DNA of 62,780 nucleotides, counting the filler. It is 13 parts of 13 records of this genome, joined end to end, with 100 filler letters (N's around TTAATTAATTAA, not from the genome) between each part and the next. Parts side by side here need not be neighbours in the genome. Positions count along the whole stretch, not along the records: positions 53,335 to 57,854 come from SRR7504441_10072; 12 more parts are not named here. One strand, 5' to 3'. A program made the position numbers and the translations under genes. The notes below the pieces were generated by a model that did no database searches, had not been told where the DNA came from, and was given only the letters and a program-made list of their open reading frames with translations. Below, in pieces: positions 3,216 to 58,034 of this stretch (position 1 is the stretch's first letter; each line of letters opens with the position of its first letter).

Positions 3216-3315
3216 NNNNNNNNNNNNNNNNNNNNNNNNNNNNNNNNNNNNNNNNNNNNTTAATTAATTAANNNNNNNNNNNNNNNNNNNNNNNNNNNNN
3301 NNNNNNNNNNNNNNN
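3216..3315. other. Artificial contig linker N44-TTAATTAATTAA-N44 (also at 9998-10097, 15088-15187, 22028-22127, 25721-25820, 30555-30654, 33900-33999, 39021-39120, 44482-44581, 48138-48237, 53235-53334, 57855-57954)
   Basis: The identical 100-nt spacer, carrying stops in all six frames, occurs 12 times and truncates genes. Confidence 0.98.
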
Positions 3316-6218: not shown

Positions 6219-9200
6219 ATGAGCGTCTTTGGAAAGTCGGACGTGGGGGTCGAGATGACCCCCTTGGACGAACTGGAGGAACCGCACGACGACATGAACG
6301 GGGGCGCGCCCATCATGGGCTCCATGGCCGCCGAGGTGCCCCGTCTGGGCCCCGGGCGCCGGCCGACTGGGCGGTGCAGCTAGCCGAGATAAACCCGATA
6401 TACCTAGACCAAGAGCCACCCACGGTCAAGGCGCCGCCCCCCGCGCCTTGCCTGGACGAGCCCCCGGGGCAGCCAAGCTCTCCAGCCAAGCCGAGCGCTC
6501 CTGCCAAGGAAGCGGTGGGCCGGCCGCTCGCCCGGGCTGACCTCTGAGTGGTTGACAGGAGAAACCGAAAGCCAACGTGTACGATGAGGTGGAGGAGGCC
6601 AACGAGATGCGCCAGCTCACTCGGAAGGTGCGGGCAGTCCAGTCGGCTGCGAGCCGTGGCTAGGTTGAAGACTCGTTGCTGCTGCTCGAGGCGATCCACC
6701 GGACGCCGATAGACGCGTACAAGAAAGAGGCGCGCGGCCGCCAGCCGCCGATGTGACGGTGTGCAGGCCGCGCTTCACAAGGGCAAGCTGGCAAAGGCGA
6801 GGAACAAAGCTATCAAGATCGGGGAGCAGATCTGCTCTTTGCGGGAGAAAGGGTACTACATCGTGCGCGAGCGGCAGGTGGCACTCTCGACGGGCGGCGG
6901 CTGAGCACTGTGCTAGATGCGGCTGGAGCAGCAGGCTCGACTGAAGCAGCAGCTGCGCTGCTCAATGGAGATGGTGCAGCAAGAGCAAGAGCTGCAGGCA
7001 GCCCAGCGCCAGCCTTGGCCCTGACTCTGGGGGGCAGGAGGTGATGCTTGCCCGACTGGACTCTGAGACGCGCGAGCTCGAGTCAGTCGAAGCTTACTTG
7101 GAGCACCAGCAGAACATCAAGGCTGCACAACTCGAGATCAAAAGGCTGCAGGCGGCCAACCGGGATGCGGGCAATGTCCGCTCCGGGTTCGGTGGTGGAA
7201 AGAGGCGCAAGAAGAAGTCGGGTCGTAACCTCAAGCTGATGCGGGCCGTGGTGTTGCCAGTGGAGTTCATGGACGACAATCAGAGATTTCGTGTCCCTTG
7301 GTCCTACACTTTCGGAGAGCTGTTGGTGGATTGCGCGCAGCTCTGGTCTCAGCCGATCGAGAACATGGTGCTCGAAGACGGGTTTGACAATGTGTGGCTC
7401 TCCGAGTCTTGCGTCACCTCTGAAGTGCAGCCCAAGAGCGGTGGGCACGACGATATGGACGAGACCCCAAGAATTGTGATGGTTGACAAAACGGAAAAGC
7501 TCTCGGCGTTTGAGACTGAGACTGCGGAGGAGAAGGCGGCTAAGATGGCTGCAAAGATGGTCTCCAAAGTGGCTGTTGGTCCCGAACTGGAGGACCGGGA
7601 TGCCAGAAGTTTCAGGATTCGAGGTGACATTGCTTCCAACATTGGATCGTTTCTTCTCTTCTGCGGGGTCTTCGTTGCGTGCATCATGCTCAAATGGAAT
7701 GTATTCAACGCGTGGACCATGCAAGATGCAATCGTGGGTTACTTCGCAACCGAGAGCTACCCTGAGGAGGCCAAGCCAAATGTGGCGTTTTCGCTGATGG
7801 ACGTGGCCAACTCGGAGGAAATGTATCAGTGGATGAACCACATTCTGGCGCCAGGTGGGCTTAGGCTTAAGGGTGCCATAGACTAGCTTTGTGCGGTGTA
7901 GGGCTGTTTGATGCAGACAACGGGATGGTGTTGCTGTATGACAGACCAGTCGGTGGAGTTCAGGCAGCCCAAAGCCGCACAGGAGCTGAGCAGCTGAGCC
8001 TGGGGACAGATTCGTACAATGCGTGTTCGCTCTGACAGCTGCGACATCCCCAGTGACTACAACTCAGGTCAGTCTGCAGCTTGGGGATTATCAGTGACCA
8101 ATTTGGGCAGGGCTGGACTACCCTGGCTGCTATGGTGACTACAAAAAGGACAACAGAGAGAAATCGCCATTCGGGATAGTCAGATTTCGGCCTGATGGCG
8201 AGCAGTACCGCTGGTACTGGCACACTGGAGCCGAGGAGGCCATTCCCTACACAAGCCCGCACACAGCTATCGAGTACGACACCTCTGGGTATTGGACAAA
8301 TCTGCCGCTTGACCAGGATGTGTTCACACAAGGCATAGCTGAGCTGGAGGCCAATGGGTTCACGGACAAGCAGACTCGGGCAGTTATGGTCACATGGGTG
8401 CTCTTCAACGTCAACTTCAACATGTTCAATTATGCACGAGTCCTGTTCGAGTTCACCCCAGGTGGAGTTGTCCTGCCGTCCATGCAGACACACACATTTC
8501 GGATGGACACATATGGCGAGGCCGAGTGGCAGTGGCGCTTCTGCATGGATATGCTCTTTGTGTACTGCACATTCTACTGGTTCAAAAAGATTCGTCATAG
8601 GGTCATTGATGCTTATCTCGACACAGCATCTTACCTCAACTTCTTTTTCAACTTCTGGAACTTCATGGATGTGGCCATTGTTGCTCTCTGTGTCACCTAC
8701 ATTTCTCTCGAGCTGTATCAAGCATGCAATAAAGCCCGACAAGATTTTGACATAGCCGTCGATCATTACGTGGAGCTTGGTACCTTTGCAGAATATTTTG
8801 AGCTCTCCATTCAAATGAACGCGTTTGCAGCCCTCCTGATTATACTACGGCTTTTCGAATTCCTCAACATATCAGAGCGGATTGCCCTGCTTTCTCGAAC
8901 AATCATGCTCTCAGTGCCGGACGTGGTGTCATTTATGGTCATGTTTTCAATCATATTTACTGCGTTTGCCATGATGGCACACACCCTCTTTGGGTAAGCT
9001 GCCCGGCCTGGTTGTTTCACTGTTGACTGATTATGGCTGCACAGCTGTGCGGAGGAGGGCTACAGCCAGTTTACAAAGTGCATCATCACGCTGCTGCTCA
9101 TGCTGTTGGGTGAATTCGACTATGAGGTGCGGCAACTGCCCCTATGCCCAAACCACCCTATTGACAGGCACTTCGGGCTGCGTCGGTGAATTTTGCACCT

Positions 9201-9548
9201 ATATTCTTCCTGCTCTACAATATTGTGGTCGTGTTTGTGCTGCTCAACGTGTTCATTGGTATCATTGGCGAGGCATATGGTGCTGCCAAGGAGCCCTTCT
9301 CTGGTACGATGAAGGATGATATTGGCATATTGTGCAAGGGACTTGGCGTGTCAGTACAGAGCATCTTTTGTGAGCCTGATCCTGATGGCGGGCAAGAGGA
9401 GGAAGAAGCTGCAGCTGAGGATGCAGCGCCTGCAGAAGGTGAAGAAGGTAAGACCGAGGGCGCGCCGGGTGAGGACTTGGACAAGAATCCTTTGCTTGCC
9501 AACAAGGACCAACAACAACAACCTGGCGTTCAACCTACGAGCAAATAG
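6219..9548 (+). CDS. PKD2: Polycystin-2 (PKD2/TRPP)-like cation channel with N-terminal coiled coil, about 11 short introns
   Basis: TM1 (FLLFCGVFVACIML), TOP domain (DVANSEEMYQWM, GGVQ|IRTMRVRSDSC, GFTDKQTRAV, LFNVNFNMF), NFWNFMD, LRLFEFL, pore LMLLGEFDYE and S6 VLLNVFIGII. Confidence 0.88.
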
Positions 9549-25820: not shown

Positions 25821-26239
25821 CCCCCCCCCCCCCCCCCCCCCCCCACACACACCCGGACGAACAGATCGAACAGCTCGCGGTCGGCCTGCTCATAGTCGGC
25901 CGGCCCGCCTGCGCCAGTCGTCGGCCTGCCCGGGCGGCGGCTCGACCTGCGGTGCGCAGCGTCGCGCAGAACTCTAGGAAGTTGATCTGGCTGTGCCCTG
26001 GCGGCCCGGCTGGCGGCCCGGCTGGCCAGGCGGGCGGACCTATGTCGGCCTGGAGCCCGCCCACCGCGCAGGCTAGGTTGCCCCGCTCCTGCGACGGCCG
26101 CCTCCTGCCGACGTCGACGAAGCTCACTGCGCCGGCCCGGTCAGCTGGGTGGGGGCTGGGCGGCACAGCTGCTCTCGTCCTGCACACGGAGTGCGTACGC
26201 CGAGTCCTGCCACGTCGAGTCCTCCCAGCCCTCGAACAT
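25821..26239 (-). CDS. 5' part of a putative EF-hand-like protein, truncated
   Basis: MFEGWEDSTWQDSAY.. joins through three GT..CAG introns to GHSQINFLEFCATL and DYEQADRELFDLF. Confidence 0.5.
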
Positions 26240-30386: not shown

Positions 30387-30671
30387 CTGGTGGCGGATGT
30401 ACCACTGGGCTTACGTGAGTGTGTGTGATGACCGCGTGTACGATTATTTCTTCGATGATGTTGATGGGGAGGAGCTTTGCGTATGGGCTTATGGTAGTCA
30501 GGGACAGGTGAATTGGACATTGCTAGGCGTCTCGGAGTGGTGGTGCGACACCCTNNNNNNNNNNNNNNNNNNNNNNNNNNNNNNNNNNNNNNNNNNNNTT
30601 AATTAATTAANNNNNNNNNNNNNNNNNNNNNNNNNNNNNNNNNNNNNNNNNNNNCAGCACAAGGCGCTGCT

Positions 30672-33600
30672 TTAGTCGATCCAATAGCTGGTTCCGTGCT
30701 CCTGCAAGCGTATAGCCAGTCAGATCGCAGGCAGTTCATCCCTTGACCTTATTGTATTCTACGAGCTTGAGTTTCATAAACTCTTCGGCTTCCTCCTTTT
30801 GCCCGGCTGACAGCAGTGCCGCCACCCGCTTTTCAGTCTGGGCCATCCGGTGTCAGACCGAGCCAGCCAGCCACTGACCTCTCCAAACATCTTCTGCTTG
30901 AGTGCGAGCGAGGACTGCTCGAGCACTGCAGTCCAGCCCTCCTTGAAGGTCATGAACTGGTCCTGATTCATGACTGCCTGAGCGCACTCATACTGCTTGT
31001 TCAGCAGATGTTCAGCAACCTGGCAACAAGTCAGTTGGGCCCGGCACCCAGCCAACCTCGTCAGGGATCTCTCGGACCAGCATGTCAACGGCGGGCAGCC
31101 CGTCCTCTCCTGCCTCCAGCCACTGCTTCCGGGCTGCCTGGAGCATGCTGGCCATCTCAGCCTGCTGATCTTTAGCCAGGAGCGGCATCATCTTCTTCTG
31201 CGAGCTCGTGAGCAGCTGCTGCTTGTCGGCCAGTGAGTCCATTGTCTCCATCTCAGCGTGGTCCTCCAAAAAGACCAGCAGCTGATCTGGCCGGAGTATC
31301 TTCTCGGCCGCCAGCCTCCGATGCTGGAGCAGATACTCCATCATGCTCTGCGTGGCGGATGTCTTCTGTTCCACCTGCTTCTTCTGCAGCCCCCAGCTCA
31401 GCCTGGGCTAGCTTGCCGGCGCACCGCCTCGCGCAGCTCCTTGGCTGGGCCGTCGGCTTGCTCCAGCTGTTCTGCGGCTTGCTTGAGTGTGCTCTCGATC
31501 TCCTCCGCCTTGGCCGCTTGCTGCTCGATTGCTTGCAGCAGCAGCTGGTCGAGCCGCGACGTGCCAGCAAGAGGCAGCTGTTCGCCCATCGTCTTGAGCA
31601 GCGCGGCTTGCTTTTGCTGCGTGTGCCCACAGATGCGGCGGAGCACCTGCCTCTCCAATCGGCCACAACCTCATGCCAAGCGAGCACCGACGGCAGGATG
31701 GACCGAGTGTCGTCCATTGCATCAACGTGTGTGGTCCTGAACAGCTGGGCCACGAACCGATGCACCATTGGCAGGTTGAGATCAGCAATCCCGCCCAGTC
31801 CAAAACCCTCCTGCAAGCCGGCTTAGCTCTACCCAGCTGCTGCACGGTGCACCCCCGCTGCGTGCAAGTCCACTTCCTCGGCTAGAGCCTCGCCGGCGAT
31901 CTTTTCAACGTCAACTTCCAGGCTCTTGTACTCAAACTGCCCGCCTGGCTGAGCAGCCGGTGCCCTGCAGTCTACCTTGGGCAGTGGGGTGAAGAGCCCG
32001 CGCTTGAGCATGGCACGCAAGTTTGGCTGGAGACCTCCCAGATCGTACGGGTTGCCTACAAAACCGTTCTGGGCGTGCGGCATCAGGTATGGGTAGCGGA
32101 AGCCATTCATCCGCTCGTTGGTTGTGAGGTTGACCTTGATGTTGCCCATTTGGAATAACGTGAGCTGGAGAGCCATCAGGCAGCAGAGAACTTGGAAGAC
32201 AGTCAGGTACAGCACGCTCGGGTGCTGGCTGTTCATGGCGACCAGGTTAGGCCCGATCGGGAAGATCGACGAGGCGCCAATCTGGGCGAGCAGCCAGCCG
32301 CCGAGCAGGTAGATCGCGATGATGTGGCTAATGAACTCTGTGACACACCAACCGACAAACGGTAGGTAGTTGCAATGCCCGACCGCGTTGTTGCACCACG
32401 GACAGAAGTGGTCAAACTCGGCCACGCAGCAGTTCATCACCGAGTCGTGCTTGGACCGGATCGGCTTACGAATCATGCAAGTTGTGCACAGGCCTGACCA
32501 CAATCAGCCGCCTCCAGATGAGCCAATCACCTTCGAGCGACACGCCCCGCTCCCCTGCCATCAGACAGTCCCTGTAATCCTGCCAGAACCGATCGCCGAT
32601 CCAGCCCGGCCAGCTGCTACCCGCTCGCTGTGGGGTATCACTCCAGGGTCGGTGTACGAGGCACCGCAAAAGCAAACAACCATCAGCACCGTGTTAGACA
32701 CAAAGATCAGCATCAGCAGCGGGTGCGCTCCCCCCAAACCCACCTGCGCCGGCTGGCCTGTGGCCGGCGGCCGGGTTGTACCGTGTTGAGCAGGGTTCCG
32801 TAGGTGTAGACAAGGCACGAAATGTAGAACGTATGCATGATCGGGTTTGCCTTGATCTGCAGCCCAAGTGAGCTCGAGCCTGTGAGGCAACCGACCTTGG
32901 CCCCCTTCTTGGGCATCAGCGCATTGCCCACTACTGTCATCATGATCCCACTGGCAGCCACTGACAGATACCAAGGCAGCTGCCCGAACAAGTAGAACAT
33001 GGTCGGCGTCGCCACCATCGGAGCCGCCACGTCGGTGAACTTGAGCAATTCATTCGGCCGTTTGAAGCCAGTCATCAGCCATGGCCCCAGCTCGGCCTTC
33101 ACCCCTTTCTTGTCCGTATTCAGCGCCTGCCACCCGCTCAGCAGCCGCGCCTGCTCGCCCGTCACCCGCGCAATCTTTTCATGCCCTTTGGCCTTGGCCA
33201 GCGCCGCCGGTGTCTCTCCGCCGGACTCAAACGCGTGCAAGTCGGATCCGTTATCTGCCGGCCTGGGCTCAGGCCGGTCCAGGGGGTCAGCACCAGCCAG
33301 GAAGAAGCAGTTGGTGCTGAATCCGTTGATCGCGCTCAGATGCAGCGGAGTGCGCCGTTCGCAATCGACCTGTCCGCACAGCTGGCGGCGGGAGAGCCCA
33401 GCCCGCACCTCGTCGCACTGGGACCCGGCGCTGATCAGGGTCTGCATGGTGAAGATCGAGCTGTGGTTGCTCGCCGCGTGGTGGAGCGCCGTGTACCCAT
33501 GTGCGTCCCGAGCCGCTGGATCGGCCCCGAGTGCCAGGAGCACCTGAGCCGGTCAGCCCAGGGTGCGAGGCTGGCCCAGCCACCTTGGTAACGTCGAGCG

Positions 33601-33899
33601 CCTTGTCGCCCAGTCGGCAAGACCAGTGCAGAGGGGTCTCGGACACAGCGTTCGAACCGGCGCTTCCCCCCGGCTGGACCGGTGGGGCTGGATGGGCACA
33701 CCTGTTGACGCTGGCCCCAGCGTAGACTAGCGCTTGGATCGTCTTCACTTCGCCCGCGTGGACGGCCCGGTGCATCGGGAGCAGACCTTGAATTCGGCCG
33801 ATTAACCTCTAGCCGGCCCGCACGCGCACCCCAATGGTCGGGCTGGTTCGGATCGGCCGCCCCCGATTCGATCAGCTGAAGCGCCACCTGCCCAGCACT
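30672..33899 (-). CDS. AKR1: Ankyrin-repeat DHHC-family palmitoyltransferase (Akr1/ZDHHC13-17 type, DHFC variant) with long helical C-terminal extension; 5'-partial, many introns
   Basis: Ankyrins (ETPLHWSC, GYTALHHAA, RTPLHLSA), YTDPG, CTTCMIRKPIRSKHD..FDHFCPWCNNAVG, TTNE and NPYDLG. Introns link onward to ..EYNK|EHGTSYWID*. Confidence 0.85.
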
Positions 33900-37208: not shown

Positions 37209-38246
37209 ATGATACGCGCGGCTCTCCTGCTGCTGCTGCCCAGTGTGCTGGCAGGGCCATGTGATTTGTACGCTCGTGCTGGCACCCCGTGCGCCGCGGC
37301 GCACAGTGTGGTGAGGGCGCTTTTGAGCGGGTTCGACCTGCCGCTGTACCGGCTCCTACGGTCCAGCGACAACGCGACCCTGGACATCCGCCCAGTTACC
37401 CCGGGCGGCATCGCCGACGGGCGCACACACGCCAGGTTCTGCGACCACCCTGTTGCCGCCGGGTACCCTGCCCGCGCTGCCTGCGTCATCTCGGTGATCT
37501 TTGATCAGACCGGGAACGGGAATCATCTTCTGCCGGCTACCCCCGCGATCAACAACCCGGCGTTCGACCTGCCGGTCAATGCCACCCGGCACGCCATCAC
37601 CGTCAATGGCTCTGTGGTGTACGGAGCGTTCTTTGAGACCGGGATGGGCTATCGCGCCCAGAACACCACCGAGGTGGCGCGCGGGAACGACCCGGAGACT
37701 ATCTACATGGTGACCTCGGGCACCCATCTGAACAGCATGTGCTGCTTTGACTATGGATCCAGCGAGAACCGGCCCGACGACCACTCCAAGTTTGTAAACG
37801 GAGCGATGGAAGCCGTCTACTTTGGGACTGGCTACGGAGGGGGTGGCAAGGGCCCGTGGATCGGGGCCGACATGGAGAACGGGATTTATGGCGGTCCGTA
37901 TGTGGCGGGTGATCGAGCGCTGCGGTCGCCGTTTGTAACAGCGATGGTGAAGGGTGGCTCAGATGGGTTTGCAGTCAAAGGAGGTGATGCGAGTGGATCA
38001 GTGGCAGGCGGCCGACTCAAGCGGTACCACGACGGGCCGCGGCCGCATGGGTATCAACCGATGCACAAGACAGGCGCGATAATCCTTGGGGTGGGCGGCG
38101 ACAATGCTCGAATGAAAGGCAAAGTTGGGGTTCCCGGTCTGTCTGTTGGAACCTTCTATGAAGGGCTGCTCACCGCCGGGCTAACCACCGATGATGCCGA
38201 TGATGCTGTGCAAGCCGATATCGTGGCTGCTGGCTACGGTAGCTAA
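37209..38246 (+). CDS. abfB: Secreted GH54 alpha-L-arabinofuranosidase B, catalytic domain only, intronless
   Basis: Signal peptide then GPCDLY..GTPCAAAHS..RAL, DQTGNGNHL, CCFDYG, GAMEAVYFG, GPWIGADMENG, GAIILGVGGDN, GTFYEG and VQADIVAAGY*. Confidence 0.93.
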   Translation: MIRAALLLLLPSVLAGPCDLYARAGTPCAAAHSVVRALLSGFDLPLYRLLRSSDNATLDIRPVTPGGIADGRTHARFCDHPVAAGYPARAACVISVIFDQTGNGNHLLPATPAINNPAFDLPVNATRHAITVNGSVVYGAFFETGMGYRAQNTTEVARGNDPETIYMVTSGTHLNSMCCFDYGSSENRPDDHSKFVNGAMEAVYFGTGYGGGGKGPWIGADMENGIYGGPYVAGDRALRSPFVTAMVKGGSDGFAVKGGDASGSVAGGRLKRYHDGPRPHGYQPMHKTGAIILGVGGDNARMKGKVGVPGLSVGTFYEGLLTAGLTTDDADDAVQADIVAAGYGS

Positions 38247-48485: not shown

Positions 48486-51400
48486 CTAGTAGGGATTTAG
48501 GAAGGGTGTAGGATGGGTCGCATAAGGAAAAGCGAGAATGTGCTCGTAGTATCTTGCCAACGAGATTCTACAAATGTCACAGAATGACGCTGACCATTCA
48601 CCCCCAAGCATCTCGCTCAACAGATCGATTGAAGCTTCATTGCCCCTTAGCGCCTCCAGACCGAAGAGAGACTCGATGCACAGCAGCTGTATTACCCGGC
48701 CACAGGCCTCCTCGATGCCGCCACAGCCAGCCGAACGCTCAGCAAGATTAATCACAGTGCCCACTGCACCCAGCTTGGCGACTACAAAGGCATGCTTGGG
48801 TGATGTGTATGCAATTGACAAGAGGGTTTTACAACGCTCTGTTACGGCAAGTTCGCTGAGTTCAGCTGAGCTCAGATCATTGATCACCATTTGTATCCGA
48901 TCTTTCGGAATCACCTCGCTCGGAGGCACAAAGAAGTACCAGCCAGTAGCCCGACTAGGGCCGAGCCAGCTGTTGGCCTTGACTAACACTAGGTACTCGG
49001 ACTGCTCTTCGAGGTCTGCTGGTACAAAATCTGTCTCACCTAGTGGACAACTCCAGCTGGTGTGTTGGCCAGCTTTGGAAGCGATTACAGCTGTAGCACA
49101 AGCTGCTCAATCGCAGCCCACAGGACTGTCGCACCGATATCGATATCGGCTGCACGTGGGGCAGGCACCGTACCATCGAACACAAAGGCGCCCGGGTCGC
49201 TTTTCACAAGGGCAGCAAATTCCTACATGCCACTCAGCACAGCGAGCCGCGCGAAGCACCTGGCGCCATTGGTCTGATGCCGGATCAGTGAACTGATCGG
49301 ATGCATCTGCCGTTCTCCAAACGCAGGTAGTGTAGCTATCTACAGCAGGACCATGGGTCGCTGGCTCCTGGAGCACACTGGTCAGCTGTCAACACAATCC
49401 GGAGACCTGCCAGCTGAACTTCCACTGGCTGCCATCAAGTACAATATCCAGAGGCACTGCCTCGGGTGGTGAAGCGAGCTTGACTTTGAACCTGACTGGA
49501 TCCGATTTGGGCCCTTTACCACCCACGTTGAAGCCAGCGATTTGAAACGTGGATGTAGAGTTGAAGGGAAGGTCTCGCGCAGTAAAGCTGGTTGTGCCAG
49601 CATCCACTCGCTCCGTGCATCGAAGATTGCCGTCCTCGTCGGTCACTGTCACGTCATAACCCAACACCTACAGCCATCACTCGCCAGAGCATACCAGCAA
49701 ACGCACCCGGTTGCCACACCCATCCGGGGCAGCCCAAGAGATTGATAGGCCTGTGTACTCAGGCTCGCCCATCCTCACAGGCAACCCCACCTGCACAGTC
49801 AGACAGTGCTCGCAGCCAGCCCCCCAGTGGCAGGCATCTTGCCTTGGCAGGAGGAGCTGCAAGGGTCTCAAAGACTCGCGTTGCCTCGTCGGTGGAGTAA
49901 CCCACGCCATTGAGTGCCAGCAACCTCACTTGGTACGAGGACATCGGTTTGAGCTGCCCGACTTGGTACTGGAGCCTGAAGACAGTGAGTCGCCAGCCTA
50001 CAAGCGCCACTTACTGGCTTCCATTCAGGGTAATAGTGACGCACGGCTCGGAGGGTCGGTTCAGACTCAGCCTATACTCTATAACTGGGGATCCTCGAGG
50101 AAGAGCGGGATCCCATGCGACGCACAGCATGTCAGAGCCCCGCTCCACCAGACGCAGCCCCACATTCGACACACAAGGTACCATCGCGGCCTCGTTGCAC
50201 TCCTCTGGCCCCAACCCAACGCTGTTCGCTGCTGCAACTGCGTAGCCAAGAGGCTGTTCAGGTCCAAAGCCTTCGACTGTGTACTGCAAGCAGCCCGCAG
50301 GGAGGCAGATTTTGGAGCTCCATGTGTCGCCTAACCGATATCGCAGGTGATAATTGGTGATTGGTGAGCCATGGTCCTTGGCCCCCTTCCATCCGATGGT
50401 CACCTGGGTCTATGTTAGGGCCTGGAGTCTGAGGCAGGCGTACCTTGTCTGCAACACCATCAATAAAGAACAATTTTGGGGCAGACGGTACTTCAGGAGG
50501 GGGAGTTTCGACACACGTGCCTTCGGCACCCTCCCCTCCCTCGCTGATAGCCGCGATTTTAATTATGTACCGCTTTGGTGCCTGCACATCCCTAATTGTG
50601 GCTGTGCCAGTGTCCTCTTCGCATTCCACAATCTGCTGCTTCCACGATTTGGACTCATCAGTCTCTTCACACCATCTCAGAACGTAACAGCTCACCCTGC
50701 CACCGAGGCACTTGGGCTTGGAGAAACGGAGCACCATGTGCTGCCAGCTGCCAGCCCTCTGGTCACACCAAAAAGCAGGGCAGGGTGGACACCCAGACAT
50801 GTCCTCTAGCTGCCAGACGGGGGCCATCTGGTCCGGTTTCTGCACGGGCAGCAAACTCCTCTCGCTCACTGGGCCGTGCCTGTTCGATTCCTCAAGATCA
50901 GTGCTGGATTATGCCCACCCGACATGATTCCACGAGGTGATGGCAAACTCGAGGGGAATACCTGTCCAATGCACAGATGGATACTCCATCTGCACTGAGC
51001 AGCAGGCACCGCATGGCAGGAAGACTGTCTGCTCAGTCTCTTGCGCTGCCCCGTCACAGAGCTGCACCAGGCTGCCTTCTCCAGGCTCGATGCACATATA
51101 GATCGTGTACCTGCATCCCGTTGGGGCATTGCAACAAGAACAGCTCACCCAAGCAGTCGTGCACCCCGTAGCTCCGCCTCCTCAAGTGGAACCCAGCTCA
51201 GACACAGCTGCCAGCATATCATCAGTATTTGCCAGACATAGTGTGTTTGGGTTACTTGATCGCCTTGAGACGCGCCAATGATCGGCGGTGCCATCTGCAA
51301 TGGCAAGAGCGGTGGCGCAGTCCGCAGCGCACTGTACACTGCCGGGCCCTCGCCACTGTAGTTGTGAGCAGAGAGCTTCACAGCAAACACAGTATCCGAG

Positions 51401-53149
51401 ACCAGCCTACCAATAACGGCCGAGTTCACCAGTTTGTCTACAATCACCGGCCGCCACTCGTCTTCAGAGCTGAGTATCTTCACGTTGAGAGAATAGCCTG
51501 CCCAACAGCTCACCAACAGCCCAGTGCGGGCTTGCCTGTGACAGGCTTGCCGTTGTCGTTGGCTGGAGGGTTCCAGGATACATTGAGCGAATTCCAGCTG
51601 CTGCTTACCAGCACTGGTGGAGCTAGCCCTGTGCACGTGCGGCTAAGTGGCATTGCCTGATGGTGGCATTGCCTGATGGTGGCATGGCTGAGGCTGTGGA
51701 CACAGTCAGCACGCACGGCTCACTGTGGCCGGCTTCTGAGGTGGCCAGCATCTCGAATCGACACTGTAAGCCTTCCTCGAGTCCCGTGACCTCGAAGCTC
51801 TCTTGATCAGGTCCTAACTGGGCCTGCTGCAGGTTGCCTTGATGACACCAGCTCAGAATGTACCCTGCACCACAGATCAGCGCTAAAAATCGGTCAGACC
51901 CGACCTGTTACAGGGTAAAAGTCGCTCACTGGCGATGCCCAGCGCACAGCCACTGTGGTGTATTGGGCGTCTCTTGAATGGACGTCTGCCGCTTTCAGTA
52001 CTGGAGCCTCGGGAGGGCCTGCAGCCCTCGTTGTGACGATTACCGTCGGTGAGCTGCCGCCTGAAAGAGCCGAGTCACAGCCCGGTTCAACTGATGGGAT
52101 CTGTACCTGGCCCAGCGGAGCACAGACTGTGCACTTGAACGGAGTATTCGGTGCCGAGATCGAGCCCATCAAAAGAGCAGTGGTCTAGCTCTGTGGTCAA
52201 CACGGCCTCCCCGTTGCGGACCACGCGATACCCAGTGAGTGGGAGCACCGTGCTGCACTTGGGCCGGGACCACTCAAAGCTGGCGGCGGTGTATGTAGCC
52301 TGCCAGCGCTCAGGGCCAGCGCGCGCCCAGAACCACCTCAGTGCATCGCAATGACGTGATCGGCCCTGGGAATGTAGGCACAGCCGTCTCCATCACCACG
52401 GGCTCGCTATCCGCAAACACTCCGTAGAAGCCCACAGCCCGGATCCACACCGTGTGGCTGAGCCACACTCAGCCACACTCAGCAGCCACCCAGCCCTAGC
52501 ACCTCTCGTAACGCTTGTTCCATTCGTAGCTATGCGTCTGTACAGGTAGCTCCTTCAGAAACTGGCCATCGGCGTGGAGCTCGTACCGCCTAACGCTCCT
52601 GGCTAGCTCCTCCGGCGGCTCAGACCAGCAGAGGACGGCCGTGTCCTGGCAGCTGGAGCGAAGCTGCAGCCGAGGGGCTGCAGGCCGAATCGGGCCCATC
52701 GTAACCTCCAACGGATCCGACCACGGCCCCCACGCCCCCTCGCCGACTTGCGCGCGCACTCGATAAGCGAACCGTTTGAGCGAACCGTCGGGGTGCGTAT
52801 ATTCGAACTCGGTGCCGAGGGCTACCCCGGCACAGATTGTAGCCTGTTCGTCGGCGAAGTCGCCCGCAGTGTTCACCTGCACTTGGAATTTGCAGCCCCC
52901 GCCGTGCTGGCCTGGAGCCGGGTAAGGCACCCCGGACCCGGACGCACCGCGCGGGTGGGCGAAGCAGTATCTCCAGCACAGCCGGAGGGCGCAGTGTGTG
53001 ACCTCCACGGCCCGCAGCTCGACAGGGGCCGGGTGGTCGGGGGCCGGTGGGTTGTCAGGGACGCCCTGTCGGCGGATGGGCGCGTGGGGGGGAGGGGACA
53101 CCAGGTAGTTGTTGAGCGTGACGGCGTCGAGGGCCTCGCCGCCAAGCAT
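48486..53149 (-). CDS. Large multi-fibronectin-type-III-repeat protein with C-terminal ARM-like helical domain; many introns
   Basis: Repeated FN3 signatures (YRVRAQVGEGAWGPWS, W..P..GSPITNY.L, LKPMSSYQVRLLALNGVG, FQIAGFNVGGKGPKSDP). No clear signal peptide or TM segment seen. Confidence 0.8.
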
Positions 53150-53593
53150 TGCCCAGCCCAACTCGTGCACAGCTGCAGTACTGTAGATCCTACAGTATAT
53201 ACAGTAGGGTCGGTCCCTACTGGTACTCTTTTTTNNNNNNNNNNNNNNNNNNNNNNNNNNNNNNNNNNNNNNNNNNNNTTAATTAATTAANNNNNNNNNN
53301 NNNNNNNNNNNNNNNNNNNNNNNNNNNNNNNNNNCCCGCCGCCAGCGGCTCAGCCAGGAACTGGCCCGATCGAGCACCTGCTCGCGGCTGCGAGGTCGGG
53401 AGGAGGGCAGCCATCCGAGTGATCAGGAAAGTCGGGAGTCGCCTTCATGGGAAGCGGGTTGTCAAGAGCGCGACCAGCTACATGTAACCAGCGGACCAGC
53501 AATGCCCCGCCGGCTTCTGACAGAGTCACAGAGTCCTGCTACCAACGGAACTTTCGAATTGACGTCAAATCACAAAAACAAAAGCACAAAACC

Positions 53594-56500
53594 ATGCGTG
53601 AGCCTGCCGAGTGAGCGACCTCTAGCTCACCTGGGGCTGCAGATTTGACGGAAGTCGTCCTCGATGGCTTCAAGTCATATGGCACCCGCACCACGGTTTC
53701 CGGGTTCGACACCCACTTCAACGCGATCACCGGTCTGAACGGGAGCGGCAAGTCCAACATCCTCGATGGCATCTGCTTTGTGCTCGGGATTTCAAACCTC
53801 TCACAGGTGCCTCCCATACGCCGAGTTATTCGCTCTCGTATGTTTAGTCTGCGGTGCGTCCAGGTGCGGGCCAACAACCTGCAAGAGCTGGTTTACAAGC
53901 ACGGGCAAGCAGGAGTGACCAAAGCCAGCGTCTCTCTGGTGTTCAACAACGAAGACAAGAGCAGCAGCCCGGTCGGGTACGAGAAGTACGACGAGATCCA
54001 AGTCACCCGTCAGGTGCAACCGCCAGTCCGACGCCTCTGGCACACGTTCATTGCGGCTGGCAGGTTGTGATCGGCGGCCGCAACAAGTACATCATCAATG
54101 GGATAACAGCCCAGCAGAGCCGAGTGCACAATCTGTTTCACTCGGTGCAACTCAACGTGAACAATCCACACTTTCTGATCATGCAAGGCCGGATCACCAA
54201 GGTGCTCAACATGAAGCCAGAAGAGATCCTTTCAATGATCGAGGAGGCAGCCGGCACTCGCATGTATGAGATGAAGAAGCTCAATGCCGAGAAGACGATT
54301 ACCAAGAAGCAGGGCCGCGTGGATGAGATTAACCAGGTCCGCCACCGCAGGCTTGCAGTCTGACAGGAGGGCCAGCTGCTCTCGGAGGAGATCACGCCAC
54401 AGCTTGAAACCCTGCGCAAGCAGAAGGACCAGTACCTGCAGTGGTCCGCCAACAATCTGGAAATGGAGCGGCTTAACCGCTTCTCGACCGCATACGAATA
54501 CGCCAACGCCGTCGCGCACTTGAACAAGTCGGCTGAGGATCAGGATGTGCTGCAGAACAGCCTGGAGGAGACCAACACTAACCAGCTGGAGGCGAATGCG
54601 CAGCTGGAAGAGCTTGATCGCCGGATCGAGGAGCTCAAGTTGGACAAGTCAAATCAGATGTCGGGTCAAATCAAGCAGCTTGAGCAGGCTGCTGTCGCGC
54701 TCAGCAAGGAGCTGGTCAAGAAGGACTCGGAGCTGGCCAATGCGCGAGAGACGCACACCAGTGAGCAGAATGCCACTAAGGCCCTGATTGCCCAAAAGGT
54801 GCCTGCCAAATGGACGAGCTTGCTTGTGTGTAGCTGACTGCTGCTGCAGGATGAGTTGGCTGGTAGCATTGAGAGCAAGAAGACTGAGCATTCCGCGAGT
54901 TGCCAGGCAATCTCGTCACACGAGGAAGCAAATCTAGCGGCCTCACGTCAAGTGACCGAACTCGAGAACAAGTTTGCGGCGCTTTCTGCCGGAGCATCAG
55001 CCAGCTCCGAATTGGGCTGCTCCAAATCGCTGAATGAGGAGCTGGCGGACTGCAAACGGACGGAGTCTGAGGCTGATACCAGCATCAAGCAGTGCAAGCT
55101 CAAGCTCAAGCACCTGAATGTGAGCAAGAAAGAGCTCACTGCTGCGCTCAAGAAGGTACGTGGCAGCCAGGATGCTGCTCTGAGTGTGGGCAGGTGTCCA
55201 GAGACAGCTCATCTGAGGAGAAGGAGCATGCCAAGAAGCACAAGCAGCTCAGCCAGCTCAAGCAGCAGCTGGACCAGATGCCCGGATCAGTGGATCACGC
55301 CCAACTGGAGGCATCCCGGGCTGAGTGCGAGGCCAAAGTCGGGGCGCTCCGAAGTAAGCTGGAGGCTAGTGAGGCCCAGCTGTGCTCGCTAGAATTTGGC
55401 TACTCAGACCCCAGCGCCAACTTTGACCGTTCCAAAGTCAAGGGTCGGGTAGCCCACCTGGCTCGTGTGCGTGACGCGAGGAGCATTACTGCGGTGGAGG
55501 TGGTGGCTGGGTCCAAGCTCTTCCAGGTGCATGTGGTGCGGATGTCTGGCTATGAACTGCTGGCCAGGTGGTAGTGGACACCCACGAGACTGCCAAGAGC
55601 CTGCTCAACAAGGGCAAGCTGGCCAAACGTGTCACACTGATCCCACTCAACCAGATCAGAAACAATGTGATGAGCCGCGAGACACTCGAGGCGGCCCAGC
55701 AGGCAGTCGGCGACCCTGAACTGTGCAGGCTGGCTCTTGACCTTGTGGATCACGAGCCGGAGGTGCAAGCTGTCCGCACGCGCTCAATTTGATCGGTGTT
55801 GGCTAGGTAGCAAATGCGATGCGTTACGTATTTGGGGACACAGTGGTATGCAACACTTCTGAGGACGCCCGCAAGGCCACATTTGAGAGCAAGAGGAAGG
55901 TCAAGTCGGTCACACTGGACGGCGATTGCTTCAACCCCTCTGGCACGCTCACTGGAGGATCGAGGCCAAATGGCGGGGACACTGTGCTGGCCAGGATCAT
56001 GAAGCTGCACGACCTGCGCCAGGAGCTGCATCAGGCTGAGACTCAGCTGCTGTCCACAGAGACCAAGACTAAGCAGTGCCAGGTGCGGGCACTGTGTGAC
56101 CGGATGGTGTGAGCCGGTGGTAGGAGAAGAAGAAGATTTCGCAGCAGTACAGCCTGCAAGAGCAGCAAGTGCAGCTGCTCGAACAGCGGATTGCGGCCAG
56201 CACCCACGGCAAGCTATCCCAGCAGCTGCAGGAGACGCTCAGCCAGATTGAATCGGCTGAGGCATGCCTTGAAGAACAGCAGCATGTGATGCGCAAGGCA
56301 GGCAGCCGGCGGGCCGAGCTGGAGGCTGAGATGAAGGACTCGAGCAAGTCGCGCGACAAGGCGCTCAAGGACATCCAGACGCAGCTAGCCAAGAAGAAGC
56401 TCGAGCGGGATGCGCTGCGCGAGTCTAGCCGTGGAGGCGCTCAACAAGTCGAGCTGCTTGGACTGGAAATTGCTGAGAGCCAGCGGGAGATGTCCAGCCT

Positions 56501-57692
56501 GGATGAGCAGATAGCTGCAGCCCAGCAGCTTGAAAGCGAGGCTGCAGCTGTAGTTGACAAGGCAGTCGAAGAGTACGGTCAGGCCAAGCTGGCATATGAC
56601 CAGGCACAGTCCAAGCTGGACATAGCGAGGGAGAAAATCGCCAACTGCGACCAGACAATTACTGAGGCCATGAAAGAGCGGAAGACTCTGGTGCGTACGG
56701 CGTCCGAGGCTGAGCTGGAGAAGAAGAAGATCGAGCACAAGCTGCAGCGGTTCATCAAGGACCAGCAGCAGGCCGCAGAGTAAGCTGCCTGACACTCAAT
56801 CTCAAATGCTGGCTTGACCTGTGCCTGTGACAGCGTTGTAGGCGCATTGGAGACAGCTCATGATTGGATCAGTGCAGAGAAGCAATTCTTTGGACGGCCA
56901 CACACTGACTACGATTTCTCGACACGATCGCCTAGGGACGCTCAGGCACGTATTCTGACGATTGAGGAGGAGCAAGCCCGGTTGTCCAAGAAGATCAACA
57001 AGAAGGTGATGGGCATGTTTGAGAAGGCAGAGCAAGAATATCAAGAGCTAATGAAGAAGAAGCGGTGCGAAGCAGATATGTGGGTTGAGCTAACTCATGC
57101 CTCAGTATTATCGAGAACGACAAGGAAAAGATCGAGGCTGTGATCCGGGAACTGGATGAGAAGAAGTGTGAAGCGCTCACCAAGACCTGGGAAAAGGCCA
57201 GTTGGTGCTGCCGGCTGCTCAGCTGCTCTGCAGGTGAACCACGACTTTGGATCTATTTTTGAGACACTGCTGCCTGGCACCACTGCCAAGCTAGACCCGC
57301 CTGAAGGCCAGACGGTGCTGGACGGGCTCGAAGTCAGGGTGGCTTTCGGTGGCGTGTGGAAACAAAGCTTGCAGGAACTCAGCGGCGGGCAGAGGTAACA
57401 CTTAAGAGACGGCTGGCCAGCCAAGGGTGGTGGCAGGTCGCTGTTGGCACTATCTCTAGTGCTTGCGATGCTAAGGTTCAAGCCAGCACCAATGTACATT
57501 CTAGACGAGGTTGATGCGGCGCTGGATATGTCACACACACAGAACATTGGACAAATGCTCAAAAAGCACTTCCCACAGTCTCAGTTCATTGTCGTTTCGC
57601 TCAAGGATGGCATGTTCAACAATGCGAATGTGCTGTTCAAGACAAAGTTTGTAGACGGCCTATCCACTGTGATGCGCACTTGCAATGCCTAG
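53594..57692 (+). CDS. SMC2: Condensin subunit SMC2, complete, 13 introns of 37-57 nt
   Basis: [56 protein letters not shown], hinge [55 protein letters not shown]. Confidence 0.97.
57197..57233 (+). other. 37-nt GC-AG intron in SMC2
   Basis: Removing GCCAGT..CTGCAG restores the conserved [13 protein letters not shown] and corrects a frameshift. Confidence 0.88.
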
Positions 57693-58034
57693 AGAGATAC
57701 TAGAGAGAGGTAAGAGAGAGGAGGACCGACGCCTCAGTTGTGTACACAAGAATGCAAGATTTCATTGAACATTACTACAAGTACTTATTATAGTTTTGGT
57801 GTACCTTACGTACCTGGTAGTACCAATATTTTTGTATATGGTAGAGAGTTAAAGNNNNNNNNNNNNNNNNNNNNNNNNNNNNNNNNNNNNNNNNNNNNTT
57901 AATTAATTAANNNNNNNNNNNNNNNNNNNNNNNNNNNNNNNNNNNNNNNNNNNNCTAGGTTATACTAAACGATTTGAACAGTAGGTAGATAGTCTAGACT
58001 AGGTTTCGGGCTCAGATACATTCATTAAAACGGC

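What the first reader, a model, noticed from the sequence alone, without database searches (positions are those of the whole stretch)
53594..57692. Divergent 5' splice-site code: +4 C donors (GTGC) with weak U1/U6 consensus in uniformly tiny introns
Seen: the 13 SMC2 donors are GTGAGC, GTGCCT, GTGCAA, GTCCGC, GTGCCT, GTACGT, GTGCAT, GTGCAA, GTGCGG, GTAAGC, GTGCGA, GCCAGT and GTAACA. Nine of 13 have C at +4, six lack +5 G, and all introns are 37-57 nt. GTGCC/GTGCG also dominates DNMT2, TMA7, PKD2, CBS-TLDc and the EF-hand gene. Known: typical donors are GTRAGT, and +4 faces the METTL16-methylated A of the U6 ACAGAGA box. Inference: this lineage may have co-evolved U6/U1 variants or lost METTL16, relying on exonic AG and fixed intron length. 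This is my best candidate for an undescribed system here.
Basis: partly seen in the sequence, partly recalled or inferred. Interest (0 to 1): 0.72.

Follow-up and report, generated by a model that had tools for sequence, protein, structure and literature searches.

The report
Tiny GC-rich introns with weak donors
An uncultured marine protist, probably a telonemid, packs its genes with very short introns whose start signal is weak and most often reads GTGC instead of the textbook GTAAGT, a pattern already seen in a few other lineages.

Summary
All 13 donors read as written (first donor at 53598), 9 of 13 have C at +4, and the introns are 37-57 nt. Marine metatranscriptome contigs splice out 8 of them exactly, with a ninth shown by a loose end. 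A protein from a relative's mRNA contig aligns colinearly across 12 of 13.

The pattern is weaker elsewhere. In 36 evidence-backed introns from three genes, +4 is C 17, A 10, G 8, T 1. Per gene that is 9/13, 7/17 and 1/6. Outside SMC2, +4C is 13/32 and not significant (p 0.12-0.23). GTGC still replicates at 12/32 against a 13.5% background (p 6e-4). Only 3/36 donors are GTRAG.

The window is 13 short contigs of a marine metagenome-type assembly. The nearest named relative is Telonema subtile.

C at +4 is already described in Mamiellales, Thecamonas and Mastigamoeba. Only Mastigamoeba has a compensating U1.

No genome is held, so U1, U6 and METTL16 could not be examined. T at +4 is depleted (1/36), the opposite of the published METTL16-loss signature.

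Verdict: a real, lineage-typical weak donor with a GTGC plurality. It is a new member of a known kind, and the snRNA co-evolution idea remains untested.

The parts
53594..57692 (+). SMC2 (condensin subunit) gene, 14 exons, 1172 aa
   Evidence: Open spliced CDS of 3519 nt. It is 70% identical to P0129, 65% to P0002 and 64% to P0003, colinear apart from one small gap with P0129. Pfam SMC_N and SMC_hinge are recorded on the homologues.
53598..53642 (+). intron 1, 45 nt, donor GTGAGC (after a 4-nt first exon ATGC)
   Evidence: Inferred only. There is no ATG in the downstream ORF, and splicing gives [15 protein letters not shown] against P0003 [15 protein letters not shown]. No RNA contig covers it.
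53807..53863 (+). intron 2, 57 nt, donor GTGCCT, in frame and free of stops
   Evidence: RNA joint skipping 57 nt in X1; spliced alignment with P0129.
54014..54063 (+). intron 3, 50 nt, donor GTGCAA
   Evidence: Spliced alignment with P0129. No RNA cover.
54337..54375 (+). intron 4, 39 nt, donor GTCCGC
   Evidence: Loose end of an X2 contig at 54372 continues with the upstream exon sequence; spliced alignment.
54799..54849 (+). intron 5, 51 nt, donor GTGCCT
   Evidence: Spliced alignment with P0129. No RNA cover.
55156..55193 (+). intron 6, 38 nt, donor GTACGT
   Evidence: RNA joint skipping 38 nt in X4.
55527..55567 (+). intron 7, 41 nt, donor GTGCAT
   Evidence: Spliced alignment with P0129. 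No RNA cover.
55763..55806 (+). intron 8, 44 nt, donor GTGCAA
   Evidence: RNA joint skipping 44 nt in X1.
56083..56123 (+). intron 9, 41 nt, donor GTGCGG
   Evidence: RNA joint skipping 41 nt in X2.
56780..56833 (+). intron 10, 54 nt, donor GTAAGC
   Evidence: RNA joints skipping 54 nt in X4 and X5.
57065..57105 (+). intron 11, 41 nt, donor GTGCGA
   Evidence: RNA joints skipping 41 nt in X2 and X5.
57197..57233 (+). intron 12, 37 nt, GC-AG intron with donor GCCAGT
   Evidence: RNA joints skipping 37 nt in X1 and X2. Within the 3-nt ambiguity the only G[TC]..AG reading is 57197-57233.
57395..57436 (+). intron 13, 42 nt, donor GTAACA
   Evidence: RNA joints skipping 42 nt in X1 and X5.
30702..33890 (-). 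DHHC palmitoyltransferase with ankyrin repeats; 17 introns of 37-46 nt
   Evidence: Spliced alignment to Telonema subtile P0258 and to P0246, P0244, P0247 and P0248.
Introns: 33787-33829, 33663-33701, 33544-33583, 33370-33408, 33255-33293, 33127-33165, 32857-32895, 32744-32781, 32580-32620, 32494-32530, 31937-31975, 31811-31852, 31647-31687 (ambiguous with 31651-31691), 31384-31424, 31020-31056, 30838-30878, 30702-30747.
Seven of the 39-nt ones are in frame, and six of those lie inside long open frames. No RNA was laid on this contig.
6941..9546 (+). PKD2-like polycystin channel gene; 6 introns backed by two homologues
   Evidence: Pfam Polycystin_dom and PKD_channel match on exon 8098-8994. 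Spliced alignment to P0264 and P0265 gives introns 6998-7037 (GC-AG, GCAGCC), 7855-7901, 7964-8009 (GC-AG, GCAGCC), 8068-8110, 8994-9044 and 9127-9167. Three more upstream rest on P0265 alone: 6628-6663, 6730-6766 (GCGCGC) and 6878-6916. Alternative boundaries were checked.

Best explanation
These are ordinary U2-type spliceosomal introns of an intron-dense, GC-rich, uncultured marine eukaryote, most likely a telonemid. The lineage keeps its introns close to a minimal length (36-57 nt, median 41).

The 5' splice site carries almost no information beyond AG|GT. Positions +3 to +6 sum to about 1 bit. Within that weak site there is a mild preference for G at +3 and for A or C at +4. Because the introns are GC-rich, this shows up as a GTGC plurality (about 40% of donors) instead of GTAAG.

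Inference: donor choice depends mainly on four things. These are the exonic AG, the GT itself, a branch-like CTNAS motif 8-18 nt from the 3' end, and a G-rich GGCAG|G acceptor at a nearly fixed distance (intron definition). The snRNAs are probably canonical, as in Mamiellales and Thecamonas.

Shown: the introns, their removal from RNA, the base counts and the length range. Inferred: the recognition mechanism and the state of the snRNAs.
For: - Splicing: 8 joints plus 1 loose end in metatranscriptome contigs. 12 of 13 SMC2 introns are recovered with a relative's protein and no splice model beyond GT/GC..AG.
- Core set of 36 introns in three genes on three contigs: +3 G 20, +4 C 17 / A 10 / G 8 / T 1, +5 G 18, +6 T 10, GTRAG 3, AG| 24, -1 G 34. 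Acceptor: -3 C 31, -4 G 21, -5 G 21, +1 G 24. Lengths 37-57.
- Relative entropy against the intron interior is 0.33, 0.40, 0.13 and 0.12 bits at +3 to +6. At +4 the normalised preference is C 1.8x, A 1.7x, G 0.49x, T 0.16x (30 introns).
- GTGC replicates outside SMC2: 12/32 against 13.5%, p 6e-4.
- AGGTGC occurs 12 times on the sense strand of the three genes and 8 of these are donors. For AGGT it is 21 of 51, for GTRAG 3 of 13.
- Signals learned without supervision from the other 12 contigs raise exact SMC2 intron recovery from 8-9 of 13 (11 of 13 at the lowest intron penalty) to 12-13 of 13. The signals are therefore shared across contigs.
- A branch-like CTNA[CGT] lies 6-25 nt from the 3' end in 17/30 introns, against 8/30 on the reverse complement.
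- Precedent for a standard U1 despite +4C: five Mamiellales and Thecamonas.
Against: - No snRNA or splicing-factor gene of this organism could be examined, so 'canonical snRNAs' rests on two of three published precedents.
- The third precedent, Mastigamoeba, is the intron-rich one and does have a compensating U1.
- GTGC enrichment (14/36, p 1.3e-4) exceeds what composition gives, so some specific reader of G+3/C+4 may exist.
- RNA evidence exists for SMC2 only. The DHHC and PKD2 introns rest on protein colinearity, and one DHHC junction is ambiguous.
- The branch motif is found in only 17 of 30 introns.
Confidence: 0.55

Rival explanations
1. Co-evolved U1. The lineage has a U1 snRNA, or a second U1 variant, whose 5' end pairs with GUGC. 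An example would be ACGUAC or ACGCAC in place of ACUUAC, as reported for Mastigamoeba balamuthi. GTGC would then be the fully paired donor and GTRAG the minority class.
For: - GTGC is enriched about threefold over its background frequency, both in the whole set and in the part independent of SMC2.
- AGGTGC is used as a donor in 8 of its 12 sense-strand occurrences.
- Mastigamoeba is intron-rich, prefers GUGCGC and has U1 ACGUAC.
Against: - 10 of 36 donors keep A at +4, and A is as enriched as C after normalisation. A single G-bearing U1 would mismatch these.
- +4C donors show no different use of +5G (by my own count over the donor lists: 9/17 against 6/10 for +4A donors).
- Mamiellales and Thecamonas keep a standard U1 despite +4C.
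- No U1 could be looked at here.
Confidence: 0.2
2. Loss or change of METTL16 (U6 m6A), SNRNP27K or U1C relaxed the +4 A preference and allowed C.
For: The +4 position faces U6 m6A43, and METTL16/SNRNP27K presence tracks +4 preference in Saccharomycotina (PMC10581693, passages read). Only 10/36 donors have +4A.
Against: - The published signature of METTL16 loss is a switch to +4U. Here T at +4 is 1/36 against 21% T in intron interiors (p 0.002), and A is still enriched 1.7x.
- Part of the T depletion may instead reflect avoidance of a second GT after G+3 (my inference).
- Presence of the genes could not be tested.
Confidence: 0.07
3. No selection at +4. The C at +4 is base composition plus the choice of the most striking gene by the first reader.
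For: - Outside SMC2, +4C is 13/32 (41%) against 29-33% background, p 0.12-0.23. In DHHC plus PKD2 alone it is 8/23, p 0.36-0.51.
- GTGC is already the commonest GTNN word in the whole window at 13.5%.
Against: - GTGC at donors is 12/32 outside SMC2 (p 6e-4) and 14/36 overall (p 1.3e-4).
- G and T are depleted at +4, to 0.49x and 0.16x.
- The blind first pass over the other contigs gave +4C in 46/115, p 0.014 against 0.30.
Confidence: 0.13

Closest known systems
Canonical introns of Mamiellophyceae (Micromonas AG|GTGCGT; Ostreococcus lucimarinus GTGCGTG outside chromosome 2)
   Same: G at +3 and C at +4 as the favoured donor in marine picoeukaryotes, with exonic AG and a CTGAC-type branch motif (PMC3879977; PMC2483917). 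U1 keeps the standard pairing sequence (Roy and Bowser preprint).
   Different: Those genomes are intron-poor. Their donors are strong and homogeneous (4.8 bits for EST-confirmed non-chromosome-2 introns), and the branch motif lies 43-52 bp upstream of the acceptor. Here genes are intron-dense, introns are 37-57 nt, and +3 to +6 hold about 1 bit. The organism is not a mamiellophyte: no named SMC2 exceeds about 50% identity.
Mastigamoeba balamuthi donors GUGCGC with U1 ACGUAC
   Same: An intron-rich lineage that prefers GUGC at the donor.
   Different: It is an amoebozoan rather than a marine planktonic lineage. Its U1 is known to compensate, whereas the U1 here is unknown. No intron length data were compared.
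Thecamonas trahens (apusomonad) +4C donors
   Same: Preference for C at the fourth intron position with a standard U1.
   Different: The preprint lists it among intron-reduced lineages. Here there are 13 and 17 introns per gene.
BOC1 introns of the mamiellophycean outlier chromosome
   Same: Short (under 75 nt), many per gene, weak or no conserved splice signals, and a minority of non-canonical ends.
   Different: BOC1 introns are AT-rich (under 43% GC) and confined to one chromosomal region. Here introns are 51-79% GC and the signals are shared over the contigs of the window.
Saccharomycotina +4U donors after METTL16/SNRNP27K loss
   Same: A lineage-level shift at the +4 position facing U6 A43.
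   Different: There the shift is A to U. Here U is nearly absent at +4 (1/36) and A stays enriched.

Membership tests
U2-type GT-AG spliceosomal introns | GT (rarely GC) at the 5' end and AG at the 3' end | tested here: met
   33 GT and 3 GC donors, and 36 AG acceptors, in 36 introns. The aligner allowed only these ends, but the RNA joints fit them independently.
U2-type GT-AG spliceosomal introns | Removed from mature RNA | tested here: met
   8 joints and 1 loose end in RNA contigs for SMC2. Not tested by RNA for the other two genes.
U2-type GT-AG spliceosomal introns | Donor consensus GTRAGT | tested here: not met
   GTRAG in 3 of 36; +5 G in 18; +6 T in 10.
U2-type GT-AG spliceosomal introns | Branch motif CTRAY-like near the 3' end | tested here: inconclusive
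   CTNA[CGT] with its A 6-25 nt from the 3' end in 17/30 introns, against 8/30 on the reverse complement.
U2-type GT-AG spliceosomal introns | Polypyrimidine tract before the acceptor | tested here: not met
   Positions -8 to -4 are G in 17-21 of 36 and C or T in 10-18 of 36.
Lineages with C (pyrimidine) preferred at donor +4 (Mamiellales, Thecamonas, Mastigamoeba) | C is the commonest base at +4 | tested here: met
   17/36 C against 10 A, 8 G and 1 T. The excess over background is modest and uneven between genes (9/13, 7/17, 1/6).
Lineages with C (pyrimidine) preferred at donor +4 (Mamiellales, Thecamonas, Mastigamoeba) | Strong, homogeneous extended consensus (GYGCGY) | tested here: not met
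   About 1 bit summed over +3 to +6. GTGCG starts 7 of 36 donors, by my count over the lists.
Lineages with C (pyrimidine) preferred at donor +4 (Mamiellales, Thecamonas, Mastigamoeba) | State of the U1 5' end (standard or compensating) | not testable with these tools
   No genome is held. There is no Rfam match in the window. The one metagenome scan gave no genomic contig of a close relative.
U12-type (minor spliceosome) introns | Donor [AG]TATCC | tested here: not met
   0 of 39.
Introner elements (repeat introns) | Introns similar in sequence to one another | tested here: not met
   Best pairwise identity of intron interiors is 0.75. Across 20 shuffles the maxima averaged 0.70, with a highest value of 0.73.
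METTL16-loss type donor shift | Preference for U at +4 | tested here: not met
   T at +4 in 1/36 against 21% in intron interiors.
METTL16-loss type donor shift | Absence of a METTL16 or SNRNP27K orthologue | not testable with these tools
   Only 62.8 kb of the organism is available.
Telonemia (taxonomic placement of the window) | Closest named sequences are telonemid | tested here: inconclusive
   Telonema subtile EP00656 is the best named hit for the DHHC exon at 66% identity. The next hits with a visible name or accession are far lower. For SMC2 the closest proteins (64-70%) carry no accession, and the single-gene tree leaves the clade unplaced. No rRNA or multi-gene test was possible.

The most novel reading that the evidence does not exclude
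This probable telonemid would be a further independent case, after the archamoebae, of snRNA and splice-site co-evolution. It would carry a U1 with G (or GC) opposite +4 (and +3), matching AG|GUGC. Possibly a standard U1 would sit beside it to serve the GTRAG minority. That would be two donor classes read by two U1 variants, in an intron-dense genome whose introns sit at the minimal length.
Probability: 0.18. Interest if true: 0.65.

Novelty: new member of a known kind. Interest (0 to 1): 0.4.

Why it matters
Telonemia is a deep, little-studied lineage usually placed beside stramenopiles, alveolates and rhizarians. I found no description of its nuclear introns in the held library (searches; passages).

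If the window is telonemid, it shows very high intron density. That is 13 introns in 3.5 kb and 17 in about 2.5 kb of coding sequence (my arithmetic). These introns are near minimal length and have an almost information-free donor. This makes the lineage a useful natural case for two questions:
- How the spliceosome finds a 5' splice site.
- Whether +4C lineages compensate in U1, which so far stands at one yes and two no.

There is also a practical side. 14 of 36 introns are a multiple of three in length. At least eight of them (seven in the DHHC gene, of which six lie within long open frames, and SMC2 intron 2) carry no in-frame stop codon. Gene callers tuned to GTRAGT will read through them and add spurious 13-19 residue insertions to proteins predicted from such assemblies.

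Tried and rejected
- Whole genome: none is held, so no genome-wide logo and no search for snRNAs or splicing factors.
- Rfam at gathering threshold on the window: 0 matches.
Only the SMC2 contig was laid. Parts of it had no contig cover, and I draw no conclusion from that.
- Earlier findings of the scan: nothing by place, words or sequence.
- Taxonomy from SMC2: best-hit lists, cluster look-ups, the protein atlas and a quick tree (careful search unfinished) did not place the clade.
- Metagenome scan with P0129: 2 intron-less contigs of P0129's own organism and 9 distant loci (best-segment identity 33-70%). tblastn of the window's SMC2 against four of the 9 (L006, L007, L009, L011) showed no close relative. 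Orthologous introns could therefore not be compared.
- My own gene finder: the blind pass is noisy (8-9 of 13 SMC2 introns exact at most settings, 11 of 13 at the lowest intron penalty). The EM-refined pass over-predicts and is circular for the donor. I use it only for the cross-contig validation, the blind first-pass counts and the 9 unique-solution introns.
- Introner hypothesis: rejected.
- U12-type introns: rejected.
- Compensation of GTGC donors by exonic AG: not seen.
- Three paper searches or look-ups failed on term syntax and were re-worded or dropped.
Full report
**What the window is**

The 62,780-base window is not one stretch of a chromosome. It is 13 contigs of 3.2-6.8 kb (GC 0.53-0.67), joined by linkers of 44 N, TTAATTAATTAA and 44 N. 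No whole genome is held for it. Rfam at gathering threshold finds no RNA family in it.

The SMC2 contig (53335-57854) shares words with 20 of 24 listed public runs. 18 of these are on record as RNA, and all are labelled marine, seawater or aquatic metagenome or metatranscriptome. The best share is 0.28. The source is therefore an uncultured marine eukaryote assembled from metagenomes.

**The observation in SMC2**

Reading the sequence and testing every acceptor choice for an open frame, I built a model with ATG at 53594, stop at 57692 and 13 introns. It gives a 3519-nt CDS and a 1172-residue SMC2.

The only correction is that the first donor starts at 53598, after a 4-nt first exon.
- Nine of 13 have C at +4, six lack G at +5, and lengths are 37-57 nt.

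RNA contigs from four metatranscriptome runs show joints that remove introns 2, 6, 8, 9, 10, 11, 12 and 13 at these coordinates. A loose end fits intron 4. Introns 1, 3, 5 and 7 had no cover. Intron 12 is a true GC-AG intron: within the 3-nt ambiguity of the joint no other G[TC]..AG reading exists.

I wrote a spliced protein-to-genome aligner that knows only GT/GC..AG and a length of 30-110 nt. Fed with P0129, a relative's 1178-aa protein encoded on contigs of 3564-3588 nt, it returns 12 of the 13 introns exactly. Intron 1 remains an inference.

**Is it more than chance?**

- In SMC2, +4C is 9/13 against an intron-interior C of 0.261 (p 0.0014).
- GTGC makes up 13.5% of all 6333 GTNN words of the window on both strands. 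GTNC makes up 33%.

*DHHC-ankyrin gene (contig 30655-33899, minus strand).* A search with its largest exon found relatives of 53-70% identity. Spliced alignment to five of them gives 17 introns of 37-46 nt. 15 of these are returned by at least four of the five homologues. One junction is ambiguous, 31647-31687 against 31651-31691. Six of the 39-nt introns lie in frame inside long ORFs. They appear as exact 13-residue gaps against the Telonema protein.

*PKD2-like gene (6941-9546).* A representative-library search gave P0264 and P0265. Both support the same six introns, and P0265 alone supports three more. Two or three of them are GC-AG, and for 6998-7037 no GT alternative exists within 20 nt.

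*The core set of 36 introns:*

| Feature | Count (of 36 unless stated) |
|---|---|
| +3 | G 20, A 9, C 6, T 1 |
| +4 | C 17, A 10, G 8, T 1 |
| +5 G | 18 |
| +6 T | 10 |
| GTRAG donors | 3 |
| GC donors | 3 |
| Exonic AG before the donor | 24 (G at -1 in 34) |
| Acceptor | -3 C 31, -4 G 21, -5 G 21, +1 G 24 |
| Length | 37-57 nt, median 41 |
| Length a multiple of three | 14 |
| +4C per gene | 9/13, 7/17, 1/6 |

Overall, +4C against interior C (0.294) gives p 0.018, and GTGC at 14/36 gives p 1.3e-4.

*Counting only data independent of SMC2.* These are the 23 homology-backed introns plus 9 introns on seven further contigs for which only one GT..AG solution keeps both reading frames. There, +4C is 13/32 (p 0.12-0.23) and GTGC is 12/32 (p 6e-4).

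The honest reading is that the joint word GTGC marks about 40% of donors and is really enriched. The excess of C at +4 as such is modest and was overstated by the discovery gene.

**Composition-normalised view**

On 30 introns, relative to intron interiors (A 0.16, C 0.30, G 0.34, T 0.21):

| Position | Normalised preference | Relative entropy |
|---|---|---|
| +3 | G 1.75x, A 1.28x | 0.33 bits |
| +4 | C 1.80x, A 1.71x, G 0.49x, T 0.16x | 0.40 bits |
| +5 | A 1.50x, G 1.36x | 0.13 bits |
| +6 | T 1.47x | 0.12 bits |
| -2 and -1 (exon) | A 4.07x at -2, G 2.72x at -1 | 0.88 and 1.17 bits |

The site is a very weak version of the canonical one (R at +3, A still favoured at +4, faint G at +5 and T at +6), with C added as an equally favoured base at +4. 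In a GC-rich intron that yields GTGC.

GTGC donors do not carry more exonic AG than the others (7/13 against 12/17). This gives no support to the idea that AG compensates for them.

As a predictor, AGGTGC is used as a donor in 8 of its 12 sense-strand occurrences in the three genes. AGGT is used in 21 of 51, GTGC in 14 of 68 and GTRAG in 3 of 13.

**Is it a property of the whole assembly?**

I wrote a small exon-chaining gene finder that uses codon scores and, in its first pass, only GT/GC..AG.

- At most settings it finds 8-9 of the 13 SMC2 introns exactly. At the lowest intron penalty it finds 11 of 13, with 14 predicted.
- I then learned donor, acceptor and length models from its blind predictions on the other 12 contigs, with a codon table that excluded SMC2. 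With these models it finds 12-13 of 13. The signals are therefore shared between contigs.
- In the blind pass over the other contigs, +4C was 46/115 and GTGC 24/115 (p 0.014-0.069 and 0.019).

The refined models over-predict: 172 introns, 25 of them with GC donors, and a doubtful class of 83-98 nt. I do not use their counts as evidence for the motif.

**Other properties**

- Introns are 51-79% GC.
- There is no pyrimidine tract. The five bases before CAG are mostly G.
- A CTNA[CGT] branch-like word lies 6-25 nt from the 3' end in 17/30 introns, against 8/30 on the reverse complement.
- The introns are no more alike than shuffled ones, so they are not introner copies.
- None of 39 has a U12-type donor.

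**Who is it?**

SMC2 is 70, 65 and 64% identical to three proteins that carry no accession (P0129, P0002, P0003). It is at most 50% identical to everything named, including plants, oomycetes, Cavostelium, Diphylleia, Nonionella and Paulinella. A quick tree gives a starred five-member clade on a long stem in an unresolved polytomy.

For the DHHC exon the best named hit is Telonema subtile (EukProt EP00656, 66%). P0002 and P0246 share the same adapter-derived N-terminal artefact, so they are probably from one further transcriptome (inference).

I therefore take the organism to be a telonemid, with moderate confidence. There is no rRNA or multi-gene test.

**What is known**

C at +4 is not new.

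- Irimia and Roy (PMC2483917; passages read) report the 'atypical consensus GTGCGTG' for Ostreococcus lucimarinus outside chromosome 2. They already ask whether snRNA changes complement it.
- Verhelst et al. (PMC3879977; passages) give AG|GTGCGT for Micromonas. They also describe the short, signal-poor, AT-rich BOC1 introns.
- Roy and Bowser (bioRxiv 10.1101/2022.06.08.495308; abstract and sections 15, 16 and 22 read) treat exactly this question. Mastigamoeba balamuthi prefers GUGCGC and has U1 ACGUAC, which pairs with +4C. Thecamonas trahens (+4C) and five Mamiellales (GYGCGY) keep the standard U1.
- Parker et al. (PMC10581693; passages) link loss of METTL16 and SNRNP27K in Saccharomycotina to a switch from +4A to +4U. 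They state that U6 m6A is generally incompatible with a +4U preference.

I found no description of telonemid nuclear introns. The searches were 'Telonemia, genome, introns' (45 papers, 20 listed) and 'Telonema, nuclear genome, intron' (8 papers). The one telonemid genome paper among them concerns mitochondria.

**Mechanism**

*Shown:* these are spliced GT(GC)-AG introns of near-constant minimal length with a weak donor.

*Inferred:* with about 1 bit at +3 to +6 and 484 GT dinucleotides on the sense strand of three genes, of which 33 are donors, the donor cannot be chosen by U1 pairing alone. The informative parts are AG|GT, the GGCAG|G acceptor, the branch-like word and the narrow length. This points to intron definition, with the 5' site read in relation to the branch and acceptor.

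*State of U1, U6 and METTL16:* unknown. Published precedent is two standard and one compensated U1. Two observations speak for standard machinery under relaxed constraint: A keeps its enrichment at +4, and T is nearly absent there (1/36, p 0.002). The T depletion may partly reflect avoidance of a second GT after G+3 (inference). The threefold GTGC enrichment keeps the co-evolution rival alive.

**Verdict**

- The SMC2 observation is correct and the introns are real.
- The generalisation is weaker than claimed. The PKD2-like gene does not show it.
- The more notable fact is the wider picture. A probable telonemid has 3.7-6.7 introns per kb of coding sequence (my arithmetic). The introns have a median length of 41 nt, G-rich 3' ends, 8% GC-AG ends and many in-frame stop-free introns.

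Noticed in passing
window 3216-3315 and 11 further sites (e.g. 53235-53334, 57855-57954): The window is a chain of 13 separate contigs joined by N44-TTAATTAATTAA-N44 linkers. Neighbouring genes across a linker are therefore not neighbours in the genome.
   Followed up: yes
window 33663-33701, 33370-33408, 33255-33293, 33127-33165, 32857-32895, 31937-31975 (minus strand); 53807-53863 (plus strand): Many introns are in frame and free of stop codons. Seven in the DHHC gene are exactly 39 nt, and six of those lie inside long open frames. 14 of 36 introns have a length that is a multiple of three, so there is no depletion of that class. Read-through would add 13-19 residues and would be invisible to ORF-based gene callers.
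   Followed up: partly
window 57197-57233, 6998-7037, 7964-8009, 6730-6766: GC-AG introns make up 3 of 36 (4 of 39), and their donors are not close to consensus (GCCAGT, GCAGCC twice, GCGCGC). The two GCAGCC introns of the PKD2-like gene both begin cag|GCAGCCCA. Only 57197-57233 is confirmed by RNA.
   Followed up: partly
acceptor sides of the 36 introns, e.g. 57228-57233, 54058-54063: The 3' splice site reads GGCAG|G. G is in the majority at -4 and -5 and C at -3 in 31/36. There is no pyrimidine tract, which is unusual for U2AF-type recognition.
   Followed up: partly
window 37209-38246 (+): An apparently intron-less ORF with a full-length match to the alpha-L-arabinofuranosidase B catalytic domain (PF09206, E 4.7e-101). 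It sits beside an intron-bearing CLC channel gene on the other strand. It may be a transferred gene or a mis-binned piece.
   Followed up: no
window 48486-53149 (-): ORF fragments that look like fibronectin type III repeats by eye (not run against Pfam). Their codon usage scores poorly with the table trained on the other genes, and contig GC is 0.57.
   Followed up: no
window 25821-25850: The contig starts with a run of about 24 C followed by CACACAC. This could be an assembly end artefact or a repeat.
   Followed up: no
window 53747-53901 and 57375-57477: Some RNA contigs in runs X2 and X4 match only conserved SMC2 pieces and then continue with different sequence. This fits related species present in the same samples (tables 5c and 7).
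   Followed up: no
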